The notes beneath the pieces were generated by a model. That model was not told the origin of the DNA. It ran no database searches and worked only from the letters and a program-made list of their open reading frames with translations. The translations under genes and the position numbers were made by a program. DNA of 64,000 bases from Octopus sinensis (taxonomy: Eukaryota): positions 29,636,001-29,700,000 of the forward strand of contig NC_043002.1 of NCBI RefSeq assembly GCF_006345805.1, written 5' to 3'. This document shows, piece after piece, positions 1 through 60,412 of the stretch. How positions within the stretch are numbered: the stretch's first letter is position 1; every line of letters begins with the position of its first letter.

Positions 1-332
1 GGGTTAAGAGTGCGGATTACTAACTCCAAGATTCCGAGTTAGATTCTAAGCAGTGACCTGAACAAGAACAACAACAACAAGAACAACAACAACAACAACA
101 ATAATAATAATAATAATAACAACAACAACAACATCGAAAACTACCTTAGGAATGAAAACCCAGGTTCGAAATTTCCTCACCTTATAACAATGATAATACG
201 TATTTCTTTACGACCCACAAGGGGCTAAACACAGAGGGGAAACAATGATAATACGGTAATGTTGTCACTGCTGGAATATTACTGATCACATTTGTTCTTT
301 GTGCACTGCTTTTGAGCTTCGCAACAACACAA

Positions 333-15430: not shown

Positions 15431-15629
15431 ACTTGACTTTCTGACAAACTGGTCAGTAAAAGGGAGAGCAATAGGAATATGGAGGGGATCAATAGGTGAT
15501 ATTTATCAACTTTTAGACGTTTCAAGCAAAGCTTTTCGTCAGAAACAGGAGACGGCGTAAAGTCCAAGAATAAAGAAAGATGGAGGAAAAAAGGCGCCAA
15601 CCATCCACATGTATATGTGTGTGCGTGTG

Positions 15630-15667
<38 letters not shown>

Positions 15668-16069
15668 TGTGTGTTTGCATGTGTGAGTGAACAATCTGTG
15701 TGTGATAAAATGTCATCTGAATAAGTAATATTCCCAGGGCAGTCTGTAAATTTTAGCCAAAATATATGAATCGTCATGCAATTATTAAACGGAAATCCTT
15801 TAAATTAATGTCTAATCGGGAGATTGAAATCTGTATTTTTATTGCCGTCATCATACATATTTATTGTGTCACACGACACTAGTATTGATTTACACAACAC
15901 AGCTATTGTATTACAAAGGTCTGCTGTACTCATACAATATTACTGATTACCACATAAGCACCACATGTGAATTTTATTTAATATTTTTACATCTTTATCT
16001 GTGTATCTATCTATCTATATATATATATGAACATATATGAATAGACACATACATACATACATACATACT

Positions 16070-16225
16070 TGTTTCTCTCCTTGTTTTTTCTGTGTTCCTT
16101 TGTGTAGAAGAGCGTAGGCTCGAAACGTAAGAGACGTTTTCTATTCCTGAGCGTTATACTAATACATCTGTTTGTTTTGTACGCCACCTGTCTTCGTCTT
16201 TTGTTTTTTCGTAAACTCTCCCTAT
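16070..16225 (+). repeat. Dispersed ~160-bp repeat carrying the minimal hammerhead motif (probable non-autonomous Penelope-like terminal repeat)
   Basis: Aligns along its length with 41704-41862 (ttctctccttgttttttctgtgt...ctattcctgagcg.tatactaatacatct.tttgttttgtac.ccac.tgtcttcgtcttttg). Both copies end in (TA)n. Confidence 0.8.
16097..16134 (+). ncRNA. Minimal hammerhead-like motif, decayed copy of the 41731 family
   Basis: CCTTT-GTGTAGA-A-GAGC-GTAG-GCTC-GAAA-C-GTA-AGAGA; C3 is changed to G and stem I has a wobble pair. Confidence 0.45.
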
Positions 16226-34164: not shown

Positions 34165-35400
34165 GACTTAACGTTTTGAAGAATTTGTTTTAGCCAGAGA
34201 AGACTAATTCAAGTTTTTGATTCAGTATCTGATTCTCAAGTATATGAAAGTTTTAGGATTCATGGGGACAATATCTGCAGGCTTGTTGCTTTTGTAGTAT
34301 GGCTGCATATGATGATAGATTCCATATGATGAAGTATTCCATTTTTTTTTTTTTAGGAGCACTTCGTCGGTTACGACGATGAGGGTCCCAGCTGATGCGA
34401 TCAACGGAACAGCTTGCTCGTGGAATTAACGTGCAAGTGGCTGAACATTCCACAGACACGTGTACCCTTAACGTAGTTCTCGGGGATATTCAGCGTGACA
34501 CAGAGAGTGACAATGCCGGCTCTTTGAAAATACAGGTACAACAGAAACAGGAAGAAAGAGCGAGAGAAAGTTGTGGTGAAAGAGTACAGCAGGGTTCACT
34601 ACCATCCCCTGCAGGAGCCTTGTGAAGCTTTGGGTGTTTTCGCTCAATAAACACTCACAATGCCCGGTCTGGGAATCGAAACCGCGATCCTACGACCGCG
34701 AGTCCGCTGCCCTAACCACTGGGCCATTGCGCCTCCACATTCCAATTAATGCTAAATGCAGCAAGCTTGAAATTTAATAGCTATATATATTTTGATTGTG
34801 AGGTGTCATTTTTCTTATTGGAGTTTCAAAAGCTATATGTCTCTTGGTTGCATCATATTTTTAACACAGTTCCTCTAGTTCCTATATGTGTAGATGTCCT
34901 AGGTGTGTAGACTTAATAGTTAAGTTGAGCTGTAGGGAATATTATTTGTTGGGCATATTCCTTTTAGATGTCAGGATGGAAAGTTTCGGAAGTTAAAATC
35001 GTTGTTTTTATGAATTGGTTTTGCTTTCTGTATTTTGGAAGTTTTAGAAAAAAAAAATGGGTATAGTTGTTATTCGTGTAATATAATAGTTTTATGTTGT
35101 GTGTGTTTATGAGTATGTAATACATGTGGTTAGGAGGGAAGTATTTTAGGATTATTCTGATAAATAATTGGTTATTGGAATGGAGACTTGTATGATTCAT
35201 GGCAGATTGAAACAGAAAATTTATTTATTTATTTTTATTATATGTTTCTTATATGCTGTGGGCCTGGAGTTGTTTACGTAGAGATTTTTTTCCTTGCAGG
35301 ATGTATTGAGCATTTCGGGACTTGGAGTTGATATGTCATTGTCTGTTTTATTTTTTTCATTGGAAGATTGAGAAGAAATCGTAAACATATGTAGAAATTT
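34165..35400 (-). mobile_element. Decayed Penelope-like element (RT thumb/linker plus GIY-YIG endonuclease remnant), interrupted by a SINE
   Basis: Minus-strand pieces in order: LYVNNSRPTAYKKHII; FIRIILKYFPPNHMYYILINTHNIKLLY; THIGT; SF*NSNKKNDTSQSKYI; then, past the SINE, YFIIWNL..CRYCPHE..ILNQKLELV. These resemble PLE motifs SNHPP, HFPxxHxxxKIFNRNxIKLSY, YIG, STxLSKYIW, CxLCxxE and LNxRxEL. Confidence 0.7.
34355..34736 (-). mobile_element. tRNA-derived SINE, full length, with A-tail, inserted in the Penelope remnant
   Basis: Reverse-complement copy of 55180-55560; T-run at 34342-34354; ATTCCA occurs on both sides (possible TSD). Confidence 0.9.
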
Positions 35401-36082: not shown

Positions 36083-36412
36083 ATACATACATGCATATAT
36101 ATACATATATATTTATATGTATATACACACACACACATATATATGTATACACATATATATACATATATATATACATGTATATATATATAGTATGTAATAT
36201 ATATATATATATATACCTATATATATAGTGTTGTGTGTGTAAGTAGTGCTGTGTGTGTATAGTATGTGTGTGTGCGTGTGTGTTTGTTGTGTGTGTGTGA
36301 GTGTGTGTGCGTGTGTGTGAGTGTGTGTGTGTGTAGTCAATCTAAACAAGAACAAGCAAGAAAGAACAACAACGCGAGGACGTGGTACAGGAAAGGAAAG
36401 AAAGGAAAGAGG

Positions 36413-36447
36413 ATTTTACATTTCGAGCATAGCTCTTCAACAGAAAT
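36413..36447 (-). ncRNA. Minimal type I hammerhead-like motif (A6U variant, second subfamily)
   Basis: Minus strand reads ATTT-CTGTTGA-A-GAGC-TAT-GCTC-GAAA-T-GTA-AAAT. Stem I and loop II differ from the 41731 copy but pairing is retained. Confidence 0.55.
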
Positions 36448-36805
36448 ATAGAAAAAGTCCAAAGAAGGAAGACAGGGAAAGATAATCGCCAACAAAACAA
36501 ATGCGGTCAAATATTGAAATGACCGGACGGAATGGGCGAAGAAAAAGTTCTTTCTAAGACAAGAGAGTGCAAAAGGAAGAAGTATTTGTGTGGATATGTG
36601 CGTGTGATTAGTGACAGCACGTGTATGTGGGTATGTGTATGTGTTTGTGTGGTTGTGGCTGTTTATGTATGTGAGTGGTTGGACTTTGTGTCGCGTAATG
36701 TTGTAAGAAGAATTTATAGTAAGAAATTTGGTAGGAGTGGCTGTTTGTTGTGTGTCTCCCTACACATGTGCGAAGGAGAATGGTCAGTAGAAAGGTATTT
36801 AACAA

Positions 36806-39390: not shown

Positions 39391-40058
39391 CGAGGGGTGT
39401 ATGAAAAGCCTTCAGCCTCATTTCTGATGATTTAGTTTTCAACATAGACACCCTCGTTGGCTGAACACTTTGCCCAGTAGAGGAACTCTTTTGTTTGCCG
39501 CTCCAAAGAACTTCCTACAGTGTCTATGATGCCAGGTTTTTTTCATTTTGGGGAATAGATGAAAGTCAGAGGGGACTAAGTCTAGCAAATAAAGCGGATG
39601 GGGAACAAGTTCATATCCACAATCACGAATTGTTGCCATGGCAACCACTGAGGTGTGGGCTGAAGCATTGTTGTGATGAAAAAGGACTCCTCTGGTGAGC
39701 ATTACCGGCCTATTTTCTTTGATTGCTTATCAGAAGTGTTTCAGTAGCTGAGAATAATGCACCCTCGTCACAGTGTGACCATTTTCAAGGTAATGTGCGT
39801 TTCTGTTCAGGAGTCAAAAGGCGAGGGACCCACCTTGCAGAAACCTTGAGAACCCAAGTTCTTTTGTCACAATGTTGTCTACTCTCTCAGTTGAGATGCC
39901 CAGTCTCTCAGCTATCTGACGACATGATATTCGACGATCTTGCATTATCATACCAAGAGTAAGGTCAATGTTGTCCTCGATAAATGCAGTTGGAGGTCTC
40001 CCTGGTCTGAGATCATCTTCCACACTCTGCCTGCCACGCTGGAATTCATTTACCCAGC
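39391..40058 (-). mobile_element. Mariner transposon remnant (5'-truncated, internally deleted, frameshifted)
   Basis: TA|CGAGGGGTG terminal repeat at 39389. Translated pieces: EDDLRPGRPPT, DRRISCRQIA, frameshifted VSARWVPRLLT, LFHHNNA (HDNA-like), HPLYLLDLVPSDFHLF (YSPDLAPSD-like). Confidence 0.9.
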
Positions 40059-40059
40059 A

Positions 40060-40670
40060 TTTGTTGTGAATGTTAGCCGTCTTTGATTTTCTGGGTAGTA
40101 AAGGTCCATATAATGACTTGTTTGGTGTATGGTCGATATCGAAGGTGTTAAAGGATTTGGGCAAAATTTGAGTGTTTGTGTCGTTTAATGATCACTGTAA
40201 CTGACGCCACTGTATTGGGCCACTGTAAGGTACAAGTGTTTAGAATTGTAGAGCAGAACAGATTCTACTCTTGCATAGGTGGATGTCACGTGACCTCCAT
40301 AGTATTTTTCTAATTTTCCATAGCTTGTCGGATACTGGCCATGTTATCGCTCTATGAATGGTAGCATCTATGCTGGTAGGGCATTGATTGTATTTTTCTT
40401 CTTCATGCAAACAACTTCAGTTCAGCCGAAACTGGTTTATGAGGAGAATTTGAACTTTTATGATTGTGCGTGAAACGAGTGCGATCTCATCCGGAAAGTC
40501 GGGATCAATGAGACACGATGCTAGATTACATGAATCTTGGCGGGGATAGAGACTTATGACTCATTCAGATACCAAAGCGTTCCCTAGTACATAGTCCTAA
40601 CCTATACTAGAAAGGAAAAGCGCTAAGGTGTCCCCTTGGAGAACTCCTGTGTTGACTGCAATTCGAAGCC
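40060..40670 (-). pseudogene. Decayed RTE-like LINE reverse transcriptase fragment
   Basis: Minus-strand translation gives, in order: VNTGVLQGDTLALFL (~40655), LIDPDFPDEIALVS (decayed FADD, ~40500), RVESVLLYNS (~40260), HTPNKSLYGPL (~40110). Confidence 0.8.
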
Positions 40671-41271: not shown

Positions 41272-41391
41272 CATGTATACATATATATAAACGCACACAC
41301 ACTCACACACTCACATACACATAGGCGTATATATATACACCACACACACACACATGTATATATATGTATATATATATATATATATACACGT

Positions 41392-41685
41392 GAAGGTGCG
41401 TGGCTTAGTGGTTAGGGCATTCGGCTCACGATCGTAAGGCTGTGAGTTCAATTCCCAGTAACGTGTTGTGTCCTTAAGCAAGACACTTTATTTCACGTTG
41501 CCCTAGTCCACTCAGCTGGAAAAAATGAGTAGTACCTCATACTGTGTCTCCTTGAGTTTATGTCACGCTGAATCTCCTTGATAACTACGTTAAGGGTACA
41601 CGTGTCTGAGGCGTGCTCAGCCATTTGCACGTTAATTTCACGAACAAGCTGCTCCAATGATCGTATCAGCTGGGACCCTCATCGT
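41392..41685 (+). mobile_element. tRNA-derived SINE
   Basis: Head GAAGGTGCGTGGCTTAGTGGTTAGGGC...GAGTTCAATTCCC; body cactttatttcacgttgc; tail shared with the 55180 family. Confidence 0.85.
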
Positions 41686-41703
41686 TGGCCACTACACACA
41701 TTT

Positions 41704-41862
41704 TATTTCTCTCCTTGTTTTTTCTGTGTCCCTTTCTGTAGAAGAGCGTAGGCTCGAAACGTAAAAGGCTTTTTTCTATTCCTGAGCGCTATACTAATAC
41801 ATCTATTTGTTTTGTACACCACTTGTCTTCGTCTTTTGTTTTTTTTTCGCAAACTTTCCCTT
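41704..41862 (+). repeat. Dispersed ~160-bp repeat carrying the minimal hammerhead motif
   Basis: Second copy of 16070-16225; ends in (TA)n. Confidence 0.8.
41731..41768 (+). ncRNA. Minimal type I hammerhead-like motif (A6U core variant)
   Basis: CCTTT-CTGTAGA-A-GAGC-GTAG-GCTC-GAAA-C-GTA-AAAGG: 5-bp stem I, 4-bp stem II, palindromic ACGT in place of stem III. Confidence 0.6.
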
Positions 41863-51831: not shown

Positions 51832-52090
51832 CACTTTATTTCACGTTGCTCCAGTCCACTGAGCTGGCAAAAGTGAGTTGTACCTTTGAAATACAAAGGG
51901 CTCTTTTTGCCCTTTGTATTTCAAATGTCCAGCTTTATGCCACTCTGTGTAACGCTTAATCCCCCTGAGAACTACGTCAAGGTTAGGTGTCTGTGGAGTG
52001 CTCAGCCACTAGCACGTTAATTTCATGAGTAAGCTGCTCCGTTGATCGTACCAGCTGGGACCCTCGTCGTCGTAACCGACGGAGTGCTCT
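51832..52090 (+). mobile_element. 5'-truncated SINE of the 41392 type
   Basis: cactttatttcacgttgctccagtccact...gctgggaccctcgtcgtcgtaaccgacggagtgctc. Confidence 0.8.
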
Positions 52091-55179: not shown

Positions 55180-55560
55180 GGAGGCGCAATGGCCCAGTGG
55201 TTAGGGCAGCGGACTCGCGGTCGTAGGATCGCGGTTTCGATTCCCAGACCGGGCATTGTGAGTGTTTATTGAGCGAAAACACCTAAAGCTTCACAAGGCT
55301 CCTGCAGGGGATGGTGGTGAACCCTGCTGTACTCTTTCACCACAACTTTCTCTCACTCTTTCTTCCTGTTTCTGTTGTACCTGTATTTCAAAGGGCCAGC
55401 CTTGTCACACTCTGTGTCACTCTGAATCTCCTCGAGAACTACGTTAAGGGTACACGTGTCTGTGGAATGCTCAGCCATTTGCACGTTAATTCCACGAGCA
55501 AGCTGATACGTTGATCGTATCAGCTGGGACCCTCATCGTCGTAACCGACGGAGTGCTCCT
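55180..55560 (+). mobile_element. tRNA(Arg)-like-derived SINE, full length
   Basis: Head GGAGGCGCAATGGCCCAGTGGTTAGGGC (A box) ... GGTTTCGATTCCC (B box); near-identical inverted copy at 34355-34736; 3' stem-loop. Confidence 0.9.
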
Positions 55561-56440: not shown

Positions 56441-59400
56441 ATTCATGTCAGGTCTCCGCTTGGAGCTACTGGTAACATGTAACCCAGTACAACCTGTTAC
56501 ATGGTCGGGTCGTTGGCGACTAAACTGGCAACCCCACCAAGATTTCTTGGTGAGGAGGGTGATTTGGACACCCAGCAGGACTAAAAACAAAACCTGTCAA
56601 AGGTCAGAGGAACTCTCTCTCATGAGTCAATGGCCATCCAAAATCCGTAGTGGAGCCCCTAAGGCGGTTGGATTGCGCCATGCGTGCCACCTTCCGGCAG
56701 CTCCTCCTGCTCTTGGTCTACCCCCAGTCGTCTTGACTTTGTCTTGCTACTGGATCCGGCGCACCAGGACGAGAGAGTGAGGCTGATCCTGCGCAAGTCA
56801 CCCTCACTATAATCCAAGTCACGCGCATGTCACGACATCATGACGCCATGACACCATCCAAAGTCCTGTGGCGATGGGGAAACGGCGAAGTAGCAGGTGA
56901 GGATACACTGGGAGCTGCAGTCGTGAACCCACACCAGGCGGCTCAGGACATGTGGTCGCCCCTCACTGAACTGAGGCAGCAGTGGAGTCCGGCAGCCTCC
57001 TGAGTGACCGAGCAGCCCTCTTCAGGATCGCTCTGCTCGCCTCCCCAGCATGAGGACGGGGCTAGAAAAGGTTGCCCTAAACATAGCCTGCCTCACCTCA
57101 CCCTGGTCAGCAAACCGCGGCTGGCGGGGATCCTTTCCAAGCGGTCGAAACAAAGAAAGAAGAAAACAAACAAAGGTGCTCACTTTCGCAACTTGGAACG
57201 TGAGAACTCTGCTTGACAACACCAAAGCGGACAGACCAGAGAGACGAACTGCCCTGGTGGCGAGAGAACTGAGCCGATACAGTGTCGATATTGCAGCACT
57301 GAGCGAGACCCGCCTTGCGGACAAAGGCCAGCTGACAGAGACAGGCGGCGGCTACACTTTCTTTTGGAGTGGTCGCAGCAGCGAAGAGCGTCGTGAGGCT
57401 GGTGTTGGTTTTGCCATTAAGTCAGTACACGTGCGGAAACTGGAAAGCCCCCCCGAGGGTATCAACGATCGGCTGATGAAGATGCAGCTCCCACTTGGAA
57501 ACAAGACTAGTGCGACCATCATCAGTGCTTACGCCCCCACCATGACCAACCCTGAAGAAGTTAAGGACAGGTTCTATGAGGAACTCGACTCCCTCATCAC
57601 GTCAGCCCAGCCTGGGAAGCTCATCCTCCTTGGGATTTTAACGCCCGTGTCGGGACTGACCACCAAGCCTGGCATCGCGTACTGGGAAAGCAAGGAATCG
57701 GAAAGTGCAACAGCAACGGACAGCTCCTCCTGCGTGCGTGTGCCTCTCATGATCTTACCATCGCCAACACCTTGTTCCGTCTGCCAACACGCAACAAGAC
57801 ATCATGGATGCATCCACGCTCCAAACACTGGCATCTGATAGATTACGTCATCGTCAGGGCGAAAGACAGGCGGGACGTGAGACTGGTCAAAGCCATGTGC
57901 GGAGCTGACTGCTGGACGGACCATCGCCTCATCATCTCCAGGATGGATTTCTACATCCGACCTAAGAGAAGACCACAGGGTCAGAAAGTGACGAGGAAGC
58001 TTAACATCACGAAATTAAAGAACCAGCTGACTGCACAAGATCTCCAGTCACGTATGGACAGTAAGCTGTTGGACATTCGGAGTGACCAGTCCAGCATCGA
58101 TGAGCAGTGGGAATCATTCAGGGACACGGTTCATTCCATCGCCCTTGAAACTCTGGGCCAAATTACGAGGAACCACCAGGACTGGTTCGACGAAAACGAC
58201 CAGGAATCCAAAAGCTCCTGGAAGAGAAACGCCGTCTGCTGCGGGCTCACCAAAATGACACCACCTGCACGGCAAAGAAGGCCGCTTTCAACAACATTCG
58301 CAGCACAGTCCAGGCTAAACTCCGCCTCATGCAAGACGCATGGTTAAGCGCCAAGGCGGATGAGATTCAGGGATACGCAGACAAACACGACACCAAGAAA
58401 TTCTACGAGGCGCTGAAAGCTGTCTATGGACCGCAGTTCTCCTTTGGATCAACCCCCCTGCTCAGCTCAGATGGAACCTCACTCCTGACTAACAAGAGGC
58501 TGATCCTGGAGAGATGGGCGGAGCACTTCAACATCGTGCTCAACCGACCAGCCCAGATCAACGAGGAAGCCATCGCACGACTCCCCCAGGTGCAACAACC
58601 ACGAGTTGGCTGTTCCCCCTGCAGTCGAGGAAGTGAGCAGAGCCATCAAAAAAATGTCCACCGGCAAAGCTCCAGGCTCTGACGCCATCCCTGCAGAGGT
58701 GTTCAAGTCGGGCGCCCCACCATGATCAGTCAGCTCACCAGCCTGTTCCAGTCGATGTGGGACAGGGAACAACTCCCTCAAGATTTCCGGGATGCAACAA
58801 TCGTTCACATTTATAAGCGGAAAGGAGATCGGCAGTCCTGCGACAACCACCGAGGTATTTCCCTCTTGTCCATAGCAGGCAAGATCCTGGCCCGGGTCCT
58901 GCTTGACCGCCTTCTGGAACACTTGGAGCAAGGCCTTCTCCCTGAGAGCCAGTGTGGCTTCCGTGCGGGTCGAGGGACCACTGACATGATATTCGCCGCC
59001 CGCCAGCTCCAGGAGAAATGCATGGAGCAGCACCTTGACCTCTGCATGACCTTTGTTGACCTCACCAAGGCCTTTGATACAGTCAGTCGGGAGGGACTAT
59101 GGAAGGTCATGGGAAAATTTGGTTGCCCCAGCAAATTTATTGCAATTGTCCGCCAGTTCCACGACGGAATGACAGCCAGAATCCTTGAAGACGGCGACTC
59201 ATCTGAAGCCTTCCAGGTGACCACGGAGTCAGGCAGGGCTGTGTCCTGGCCCCAACACTGTTCAGCATCATGTTCTCGGCAATGATGTCCGACGCCTTTA
59301 GGGACTGCAAGTCCGGTATCAACATCAAGTACAGGACAGACGGGAAACTTTTCAACTCCAGAGATTGCAGGCTGTCACAAAGGTGAGGGAGACAGTCGTC

Positions 59401-60412
59401 AGAGACTTTCTCTTTGCTGACGACTGCGCCCTTAATGCAATCGATGAGCAGGAGATGCAGCTCGAGATGGACAGGTTCTCATCAGCCTGTGACAACTTCG
59501 GTCTCACCATCAGTGCAAAGAAAACTGAAGTGATGTTTCAGCCAGCCCCCGGCAAACAATACCATGAGCCTCAGATAAGGTTGAACGGACGGATCCTACG
59601 AGTGGTGGAAAACTTCACCTACCTGGGCAGCACTCTCTCCTGCAATGCCAACATAGATGCTGAAACCATCAACAGAATCTCCAAGGCAAGCAGCGCGTTT
59701 GGGAGACTGCGAAAGAAAGTCTGGGAGCGGAGAGGAATCAGCCTCAACACCAAGCTGAAAGTCTACCGGGCAGTCGTGCTTACCACCCTACTATACGGCT
59801 GCGAGACGTGGACTGCTTACCGAAGGCACGAGCGCCAGATAAACCACTTCCATCTCAGGTGTCTTCGGAATCTCCTTCACATCCGCTGGCAGGACAAAGT
59901 CCCAGACACGGAAGTTCTGAAGCAGGCAGATCTCCCTAGCACCATCACAATCATGCGCAAGGCCCAGCTGAGATGGGCGGGCCACGTCTCCCGCATGTCC
60001 GACACTCGCATCCCAAAACAGCTCTTCTACGGTGAACTCGGCCAGGGCAGGCGCAAAGTCGGAGGGCAGAAAAAGCGCTACAAGGATAGTCTCAAGCTCT
60101 CTCAAAGACTTCTCCATCGGAACAGAGACCTGGGAGACACTTGCTGCCAACCGCTCATCCTGGCGCAGCGCAATCACCGTGGGAGCAGGGACAGCCGAGG
60201 AGGGACGGATTCGGTCAGCGGAGCAGAAACGTCAGATGCGTAAAGTCAGAGCCGCCTGCACCAGTAGCACTGCCCCTACCCACTTCTGCCCCACCTGTGG
60301 GAGGGGCTTCCTTGCCCGGATTGGCCTCACCAGCCACCTCCGGTCTCATGGCGGCAGTTCCATCAGATGATGTCAGTTGGTCATCTTCGAACCGAAGGAC
60401 GAACATTATCAT
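56441..60412 (+). mobile_element. Full-length RTE-clade non-LTR retrotransposon (LINE)
   Basis: GC-rich block flanked by a perfect 13-bp direct repeat TATATGCATGCAT (56428-56440 and 60413-60425). It has a ~600-bp 5' leader, one APE-RT-ZnF ORF, a 3' stem-loop (60380-60400) and a short CATTATCAT tail. Confidence 0.97.
57050..60370 (+). pseudogene. RTE ORF: APE endonuclease, reverse transcriptase and C-terminal C2H2 zinc finger, split by about 7 frameshifts
   Basis: Motifs in correct order across ORF pieces: TWNVRTL, IAALSETR, SAYAPT, HLIDYV (APE); RGISLLS, ESQCGFR, FVDLTKAFDTV, FLFADD, FTYLGS, LYGCETW, LRWAGHV (RT); CPTCGRGFLARIGLTSHLRSH (zinc finger). Confidence 0.95.

What the first reader, a model, noticed from the sequence alone, without database searches (positions are those of the whole stretch)
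41731..41768. Dispersed family of ultra-minimal hammerheads with a non-canonical CUGUNGA core
Seen: a 38-nt motif CCUUU-CUGUAGA-A-GAGC(GUAG)GCUC-GAAA-C-GUA-AAAGG, with relatives at 16097-16134 (+) and 36413-36447 (-). All three have U where hammerheads normally have A6, an extra A after A9, and no stem III loop; the 41731 and 16097 copies have the palindrome ACGU there. Known: Penelope-associated minimal hammerheads with palindromic stem III can cleave as dimers. Inference: A6U shared by two different subfamilies is unlikely to be random decay and may be an undescribed lineage-specific variant. Three copies in 64 kb suggests high genomic copy number.
Basis: partly seen in the sequence, partly recalled or inferred. 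Interest (0 to 1): 0.8.

Follow-up and report, generated by a model that had tools for sequence, protein, structure and literature searches.

The report
U6-core hammerhead in young Penelope retrotransposons
A very abundant and recently copied family of Penelope-like jumping genes carries a small hammerhead RNA motif with U at a core position that is normally A; the rest of the motif has stayed unchanged through the family's history, so it likely still has a job, possibly slow protein-assisted self-cutting, which is untested.

Summary
The motif at 41731-41768 is real. It is the minimal hammerhead at the 3' end of a 5'-truncated Penelope-like element (RT, CX4CxxC linker, C-terminal GIY-YIG; Neptune/Nematis type). 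U6 is the family state, not decay: 16,186 of 16,928 exact tetraloop copies in the genome have U6 and 274 have A6. All 20 long-ORF elements examined have U6 at their 3' end. A sister family keeps A6 (4,407 triloop copies without U6).

Along the U6 lineage (about 0.9 synonymous changes per site) the other core positions show no master-level change, while N7 and the cleavage-site base change repeatedly, as in hammerheads.

The 36413 copy is a decayed member of the A6 sister family, and the 16097 copy has lost C3. The extra A, the missing stem III loop and the ACGU palindrome were described in 2014.

I found no A6U hammerhead in the papers I could search (Lünse 2017 was not held) or in this scan's earlier notes. 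Cleavage is untested. Best reading: a weakened, protein-assisted ribozyme (0.5). Main rival: a non-cutting structural signal (0.35). Verdict: new variant of a known kind.

The parts
41687..41862 (+). 5'-truncated 3' end (pLTR fragment, about 175 bp) of a U6-type Penelope-like element, subfamily with A7/A17; ends in a (TA)n run from 41863; 5' boundary approximate (41681-41690)
   Evidence: blastn to relatives L004 and L131; tree placement of L001, which is this copy
41731..41735 (+). stem I, 5' strand (CCUUU)
   Evidence: pairing
41736..41743 (+). core strand C3 U4 G5 U6 A7 G8 A9 plus the extra A between 9 and 10.1; U6 at 41739
   Evidence: family counts
41744..41755 (+). stem II GAGC/GCUC with loop GUAG
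41756..41763 (+). G12 A13 A14, palindromic A15.1-C-G-U16.1 (stem III only between two copies; inferred), H17=A; predicted cut between 41763 and 41764
   Evidence: architecture as in PMC4209133
41764..41768 (+). stem I, 3' strand (AAAGG)
41769..41862 (+). conserved 3' tail, about 100 nt from the motif to (TA)n, as in most copies (29 of 30 loci have a (TA)3 within 200 nt, mostly at 91-105)
16068..16224 (+). second fragment of the same U6 subfamily; core broken (G at C3), stem I partly lost
36335..36493 (-). decayed fragment of the A6 sister family with copy-specific U6 (motif 36413-36447)

Best explanation
The motif is the minimal type I hammerhead at the 3' end of a Penelope-like retrotransposon lineage in which U replaced A6 and stayed fixed, and it likely still works as a weakened ribozyme that would cut only when two copies pair through ACGU and the element's own protein helps it fold. 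Shown: position 0.4-1 kb after the RT-GIY-YIG ORF and about 100 nt before a (TA)n run; U6 as the family state; recent copying of U6 elements; an A6 sister lineage; no master-level change at the other core positions while N7 and H17 change. Inferred: one origin of U6; purifying selection on the motif after that origin; transcription of tandem elements bringing two motifs (about 4.4 kb apart) into one RNA; dimer formation; protein assistance (by analogy with the anole element); cleavage after H17. The copy at 41731 itself is a truncated single relic and is probably inert.
For: U6 in 16,186 of 16,928 tetraloop copies with CUG, in 30 of 30 loci picked without regard to position 6, and in 17 of 17 tetraloop copies found by their 3' tail alone in 664 kb. 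All 20 long-ORF loci have a U6 motif 3' of the ORF, and 5 of 20 have a second motif about 4.4 kb upstream; 5'/3' pLTR identity is 286 of 290 in L131. An ORF-based tree of 44 copies has internal length 0.90 at fourfold sites and 0.07 at zero-fold sites. On a tree built from flanks only (146 of 194 copies; 48 dropped as sister-family, junk or tail-divergent), 11 core columns show 0 internal changes, N7 6, H17 3-4. The 14 motif columns not used in my pattern show 1-2 changes in all, against 0.68-0.86 per column in the 3' tail. H17 is A, U or C in subfamilies; G17 is sporadic (350 C/G matches genome-wide, 13 of the first 30 G, spread over all N7 classes), which fits the NUH rule. C3 and U16.1 are kept although unpaired in the closed hairpin fold. 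One stem I pair switches C-G to G-C between the U6 and A6 clades. A natural A6C hammerhead keeps low activity (PMC3088659 section 8; PMC7151607), and the anole Penelope hammerhead cuts only with protein (PMC11167929).
Against: A6 substitutions cut activity sharply: A6C gave 3.55e-6 per min against 0.3 per min at 0.3 mM Mg2+ in one ribozyme (PMC7151607), and all CUGA mutants except the C3/G8 swap were of low activity in a deep scan (PMC9901934, passages). Penelope min-HHRs are already weak (PMC4209133). In the anole element, cleavage-dead mutants still inserted in vitro and no RNA reads ended at the cut site (PMC11167929). U6 can pair with A15.1, and each U6 copy folded is predicted to close the core as UGU/ACG. 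Stem II and its GUAG loop are fixed in sequence with no covariation, which suggests sequence recognition beyond catalysis. Persistence of any single site, U6 included, is not significant alone (about e^-0.9 = 0.4). Columns G8-A15.1 were part of my search patterns, so their invariance is partly built in. The stem I covariation is one event between two clades.
Confidence: 0.5

Rival explanations
1. The motif no longer cuts. It is kept as a structured RNA signal (for example a binding or folding site for the RT-EN protein near the 3' end), an extended hairpin in which U6 pairs with A15.1 and G8/A9 form tandem G-A pairs with A13/G12.
For: Predicted UGU/ACG closure in U6 copies. That fold would leave N7 and H17 free and explain U4, G5, U6, A15.1, C15.2 and G16.2. 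The GUAG loop is invariant. Cleavage was dispensable for insertion in vitro and Naiads proliferate without canonical hammerheads (PMC11167929; PMC8557442, passages). The tandem G-A pairs are recalled from minimal hammerhead structures, not computed.
Against: It does not explain fixed C3 and U16.1, or the lack of any G17 subfamily. The closed fold is only 0.2 kcal/mol better than the open core in the A7 and C7 subfamilies (2.4 in the U7/U17 one), and A6 sister copies have comparable closed folds.
Confidence: 0.35
2. The constraint is at DNA or splicing level: the stretch is part of the pLTR promoter or of a splice acceptor (a pyrimidine tract runs up to the core), and the hammerhead look is inherited.
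For: Sequence-level invariance without stem II covariation; pyrimidine-rich 5' flank; pLTRs hold promoters and, in Drosophila virilis, an intron end overlaps the hammerhead (PMC6765202 passages; PMC4209133).
Against: The two positions that change most are N7 and H17, the hammerhead's free positions. N7 changes would create and remove an AG without apparent cost.
Confidence: 0.1
3. A6U killed the ribozyme and the motif is a neutral passenger that has not yet decayed.
For: Single sites have a 0.4 chance of no change over the sampled lineage; sampling by motif pattern favours intact motifs.
Against: 14 unselected motif columns show 1-2 internal changes where the tail rate predicts about 10-12; copies found by tail or by RT similarity also have intact motifs.
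Confidence: 0.05

Closest known systems
Minimal type I hammerheads (min-HHRs) of metazoan Penelope-like elements (Cervera and De la Pena 2014, PMC4209133); the Acropora digitifera Neptune entry GCU CUGACGAA GGGC UAAC GCUC ... is the closest look-alike in Fig. S3
   Same: Location in pLTRs, extra nucleotide between 9 and 10.1, G10.1-C11.1, no loop III, palindromic 15.2-16.2, short stem I, U-rich 5' flank, mostly single truncated copies.
   Different: Their consensus is CUGANGAH and every listed example I read has A6; the only core variant described is U3-A8. Here U6 is fixed in the dominant lineage.
Penelope-associated hammerhead variants with diminished stem III that cleave as dimers (Lünse, Weinberg, Breaker, RNA Biol 14:1499; paper not held, seen only as cited in PMC6765202)
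   Same: Short palindromic stem III, dimer model, Penelope linkage.
   Different: I could not check whether their set includes U6 cores.
Natural A6C hammerhead of phage Bcep176 (PMC3088659; PMC7151607)
   Same: Natural substitution at position 6 in an otherwise complete core.
   Different: C not U, a single phage example, monomeric; low activity in Mg2+, rescued by Mn2+. The case here is at least 16,000 copies of a proliferating retrotransposon.
Hammerhead of the Anolis Poseidon element PAc (Frangieh et al. 2024, PMC11167929)
   Same: Penelope pLTR hammerhead; supplies the protein-assisted model.
   Different: Penelope/Poseidon clade, with the ORF starting inside the ribozyme and no A6 change reported in the text I read; here the motif lies in a long non-coding 3' region.
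Neptune / Nematis clades of Penelope-like elements (diagnostics from Craig et al. 2021, PMC8557442)
   Same: RT with DKG motif, CX2-5CxxC linker, C-terminal GIY-YIG with CCHH, (TA)n-associated ends, tandem pLTR layout.
   Different: Clade not placed on a reference tree here; nearest database proteins are only about 45-60% identical.

Membership tests
Hammerhead ribozyme | C3 U4 G5, G8 A9, G12 A13 A14, A15.1-U16.1 core | tested here: met
Hammerhead ribozyme | A at position 6 | tested here: not met
   U6 in 16,186 of 16,928 tetraloop copies
Hammerhead ribozyme | N7 free; H17 not G | tested here: met
   N7 T12 C8 A7 G3 of 30; G17 only sporadic
Hammerhead ribozyme | Stems I and II, supported by covariation | tested here: inconclusive
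   Both stems pair (90.9% of cells in 22 copies); one compensatory C-G/G-C switch in stem I between clades; none in stem II
Hammerhead ribozyme | Match to an Rfam hammerhead model | tested here: not met
   No hammerhead match at E<=10 in 41690-41830; I did not test whether A6 min-HHRs match these models either
Hammerhead ribozyme | Site-specific self-cleavage | not testable with these tools
   Only assembled contigs were available
Penelope min-HHR (PMC4209133) | Extra nt 9/10.1, G10.1-C11.1, palindromic 15.2-16.2, no loop III | tested here: met
Penelope min-HHR (PMC4209133) | Lies in pLTRs flanking an RT-EN ORF | tested here: met
Penelope min-HHR (PMC4209133) | CUGANGAH consensus | tested here: not met
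   CUGUNGAA; the A6 sister family meets it
Neptune/Nematis-type PLE | RT plus C-terminal GIY-YIG in one frame | tested here: met
   835-aa frame in L131: RVT_1 E 9.5e-08 (above cut-off), GIY-YIG E 0.0057 (below cut-off); IIYCISC...YIGQTG seen directly
Neptune/Nematis-type PLE | DKG motif, CX2-5CxxC linker, CCHH in the endonuclease | tested here: met
   ADKGG, CSRPRCRTC, CISCSLC...HL...HF read; diagnostics
Neptune/Nematis-type PLE | Placement in Neptune versus Nematis on an RT tree with reference elements | not tested
   No named reference elements among the hits

The most novel reading that the evidence does not exclude
The CUGUNGA motif is an active hammerhead class that tolerates loss of A6 through its invariant GUAG loop or the element's protein, invisible to all descriptors that require CUGANGA. 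Or, equally novel, it is a ribozyme that turned into a non-catalytic signal while its retrotransposon outgrew the A6 sister lineage, showing that Penelope elements need the fold and not the cut.
Probability: 0.3. Interest if true: 0.75.

Novelty: new variant of a known kind. Interest (0 to 1): 0.55.

Why it matters
What hammerheads do for Penelope elements is open: they cut poorly in vitro and cutting was dispensable for insertion in the one reconstituted system (PMC4209133, PMC11167929). This genome holds a natural pair of sister lineages with the same stem II, one A6 and one U6. U6 has more exact pattern matches (16,186 against about 4,400) and includes very young copies. Assaying the two natural motifs side by side tests directly whether catalysis matters. 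The motif is also missed by searches that require CUGANGA (the descriptor in PMC8557442 and the consensus in PMC4209133), so 'no hammerhead' calls in other Penelope families may hide such variants.

Tried and rejected
Copy-specific decay for U6: rejected for the 41731 family, accepted for 36413. A shifted register that restores CUGANGA: not possible, since the U7, C7 and G7 subfamilies have no A between G5 and G8. RNA editing as a rescue: no known editing turns U into A (general knowledge). A second U6 family with another stem II: 797 matches against 105 control; the 100 listed are mostly point mutants of the GAGC or GGCTGG families. A small CTGTTGAGGTAGCGAACCAC repeat (L200, L203) has a mismatched stem II and G17 and was not accepted. 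Rfam: the 150 listed of 396 window matches were almost all miRNA models on microsatellites, none a hammerhead; none locally. Folding z-scores of the monomers were weak (-0.3 to -2.1), and nearest-neighbour energies did not separate U6 from A6 families. Sequencing runs: no RNA holder listed. Four runs laid were contigs only and cannot show ends. No difference was listed at position 6, but none at the variable N7 either, so the test is insensitive; one contig of X2 spans the motif with no difference. The first pair count used a mis-set structure and was redone. Literature: 'hammerhead'+'A6U' gave one twister paper (listing only); 'hammerhead'+'CUGUNGA' gave 0; 'hammerhead, octopus, ribozyme' and a core-variant search gave nothing on this in listings. 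Lünse 2017 and a further paper on core mutants were not held; their content and supplements may bear on the novelty claim. Earlier scan notes: none with A6U or a similar sequence.

Full report
Observation. Window 41731-41768 reads CCTTT CTGTAGA A GAGC GTAG GCTC GAAA CGT A AAAGG. In hammerhead numbering C3 is 41736, position 6 is U at 41739, and H17 is A at 41763. The 16097 copy has G at C3. The 36413(-) copy has a three-base loop and UGU in place of CGU. A fourth relative with A6 lies near 15514-15542(-). Rfam gives no hammerhead match locally.

Copy number and position 6. The window lies in G000 (2.72 Gb). Its size and repeats look octopus-like to me; that is recalled, not tested. The position-6-blind pattern GAAGAGCN4GCTCGAAACGT has 18,889 exact matches, reversed control 0. 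With CUG in front, position 6 is U in 16,186, A in 274, and C or G in 468, so U6 is 95.6% of 16,928. The first 30 loci all have U6, while N7 is T 12, C 8, A 7, G 3. Copies found only by their 3' tail in 664 kb gave 28 hits: 17 tetraloop copies, all U6; 5 triloop copies, all A6; 5 without position 6; 1 duplicate. Most A6 tetraloop hits sampled sit scattered inside U6 subfamilies as back-mutants; some belong to a true A6 sister family.

The A6 sister and the 36413 copy. Canonical A6 minimal hammerheads are common in this genome too: 15,885 matches against 271 control. They include a sister family with the same GAGC/GCUC stem II and loops UCC, UUU or GUCU. Among triloop copies, 4,407 lack U6 (98 of 100 listed are A6) and 82 have it, 18 of them with sister-type loops by eye. 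The 36413 copy is one of those 18 and falls outside the U6 clade on the tree (that tree held a few false-positive rows and its U6 node had support 0.77).

What carries it. Upstream of U6 motifs, on the same strand, lie RT and GIY-YIG remnants (8 of 90 loci; more). A search with the RT piece gave 10,735 candidates, 150 scored, dozens with the same score and open frames up to 835 aa. I fetched 20 loci with long frames: all 20 have a U6 motif 3' of the ORF, and 5 have a second motif about 4.4 kb upstream in pLTR-ORF-pLTR order (the upstream one in L131 has C6). The L131 frame has RVT_1 (E 9.5e-08) and a weak GIY-YIG match (E 0.0057, below cut-off), with DKG, CSRPRCRTC and CCHH motifs. These are the Neptune/Nematis diagnostics in PMC8557442 (passages). 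The frame is open from stop to stop and shows no start methionine near its beginning, so this copy may not be intact. The youngest copies differ by 1.2-1.6% at fourfold sites and the two pLTRs of L131 match at 286 of 290. Mean pairwise distance is 0.04 in the youngest U6 group and 0.08 in the 41731 group, against 0.15 and 0.21 in the two A6 sister groups; the U6 sample was partly chosen by RT similarity, the A6 sample was not. The window copy is a 175-bp 5'-truncated end next to a SINE-like repeat and ends in (TA)n.

Selection after A6U. A tree from the ORF ends of 44 copies is ladder-like, with internal length 0.90 at fourfold and 0.07 at zero-fold sites; N7 changes several times along it and U6 does not, apart from two copies picked for A6. 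On a tree from flanks only (146 of 194 copies kept; position 6 and 10.2 masked in copies selected for them), internal changes are 0 in the 11 core columns, 6 at N7, 3-4 at H17, 0-1 in the GUAG loop, and 58-73 over 85 tail columns. G8-A15.1 were in my patterns, so the fair test is the 14 columns that were not: 1-2 changes against about 10-12 expected at the tail rate. H17 is A, U or C in subfamilies. C or G at 17 totals 350 matches, with 13 of the first 30 G and spread over all N7 classes, which is the sporadic level. Covariation is thin: one stem I pair is C-G in the U6 clade and G-C or G-U in the sister; stem II does not vary. U6 staying unchanged is not significant alone (about 0.4 under neutrality); the motif as a whole is.

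Mechanism. The pattern is the hammerhead's: N7 and H17 free, no G17 subfamily, C3 and U16.1 kept. I therefore favour, at 0.5, a weakened ribozyme that cuts as a dimer with help from the element's protein. The supporting analogies are low but real activity of natural A6C (PMC3088659 section 8 and passages; PMC7151607 parts 1-2 of 4) and protein-dependent cutting of the anole Penelope hammerhead (PMC11167929 parts 1-2 of 4). Against it, A6C lowered one ribozyme from 0.3 to 3.55e-6 per min in 0.3 mM Mg2+ (PMC7151607), CUGA mutants were of low activity in a deep scan (PMC9901934, passages), and cutting was dispensable for insertion in vitro (PMC11167929). U6 can also pair with A15.1 and close the core, which gives the main rival, a non-cutting structured signal (0.35). 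Energies do not decide between them. The invariant GUAG loop is explained by neither. No expression or cleavage evidence could be obtained: only contigs were on offer.

Comparison. The extra A, missing loop III, palindrome and Penelope linkage are all in PMC4209133 (parts 1-2 of 4 of the text; supplement parts 1-2 of 3, including Fig. S3), whose consensus is CUGANGAH and whose only core variant is U3-A8. The motif works like, and descends from, those min-HHRs, but fails the A6 criterion, so I file it as a variant of unproven activity. Searches for A6U and CUGUNGA found nothing relevant. I also saw PMC6765202, PMC6962438 and PMC13282606 as passages and bioRxiv 10.64898/2026.07.22.740005 part 1 of 5; none mention it in what I read. 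Lünse 2017, the most relevant survey, was not held. This scan's earlier notes cover U3-A8 and similar variants, none A6U.

Verdict. Real feature, new variant of a known kind, interest 0.55. It is an undescribed (as far as searchable) fixed change at a near-invariant core position in at least 16,000 copies of a recently copied element, with a natural A6 sister as control.

Noticed in passing
window 15514-15601 (-): Decayed relative of the A6 sister family, CTGACGA A AAGC TTT GCTT GAAA CGT C, with A-U in place of G10.1-C11.1.
   Followed up: partly
window about 41389-41686 (+); relatives at 55455-55539, 51987-52070, 34376-34460: Repeat directly 5' of the element that looks like a tRNA-derived SINE (label recalled); its 3' 85 bp recur at least three more times in the window.
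   Followed up: no
window 57008-60243 (+): LINE remnant in several frames with endonuclease and RT-like sequence, RTE-type by recall; GC 51-54%.
   Followed up: no
window 39814-40191 (-): Short frame resembling a mariner-type transposase fragment (recalled from the sequence).
   Followed up: no
L152, L159, L160, L180 and many more in G000: A second abundant canonical A6 minimal hammerhead family with a long stem II (CTGATGAAGGCTGGAGGGTATATCAGCCGAAACGTT), about half of the first 100 matches; its carrier was not identified.
   Followed up: no
L312 (Ga0126336_10014829), 55-80 (-) and 151-177 (+) region: Inverted pair of Penelope-type motifs resembling the Acropora Neptune entry of PMC4209133; one has A6, the other U6 with both stems intact. 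A single case, possibly sporadic.
   Followed up: partly
U6 clade, loop II: The GUAG loop is as invariant as the catalytic core across U6 subfamilies, while the A6 sister families use UCC, UUU or GUCU. No conserved pairing partner stood out by eye.
   Followed up: partly
L200, L203 and about nine more among the first 100: Small repeat with CTGTTGAGGTAGCGAACCACGAAACGTG; hammerhead-like boxes but mismatched stem II and G17; identity not established.
   Followed up: partly
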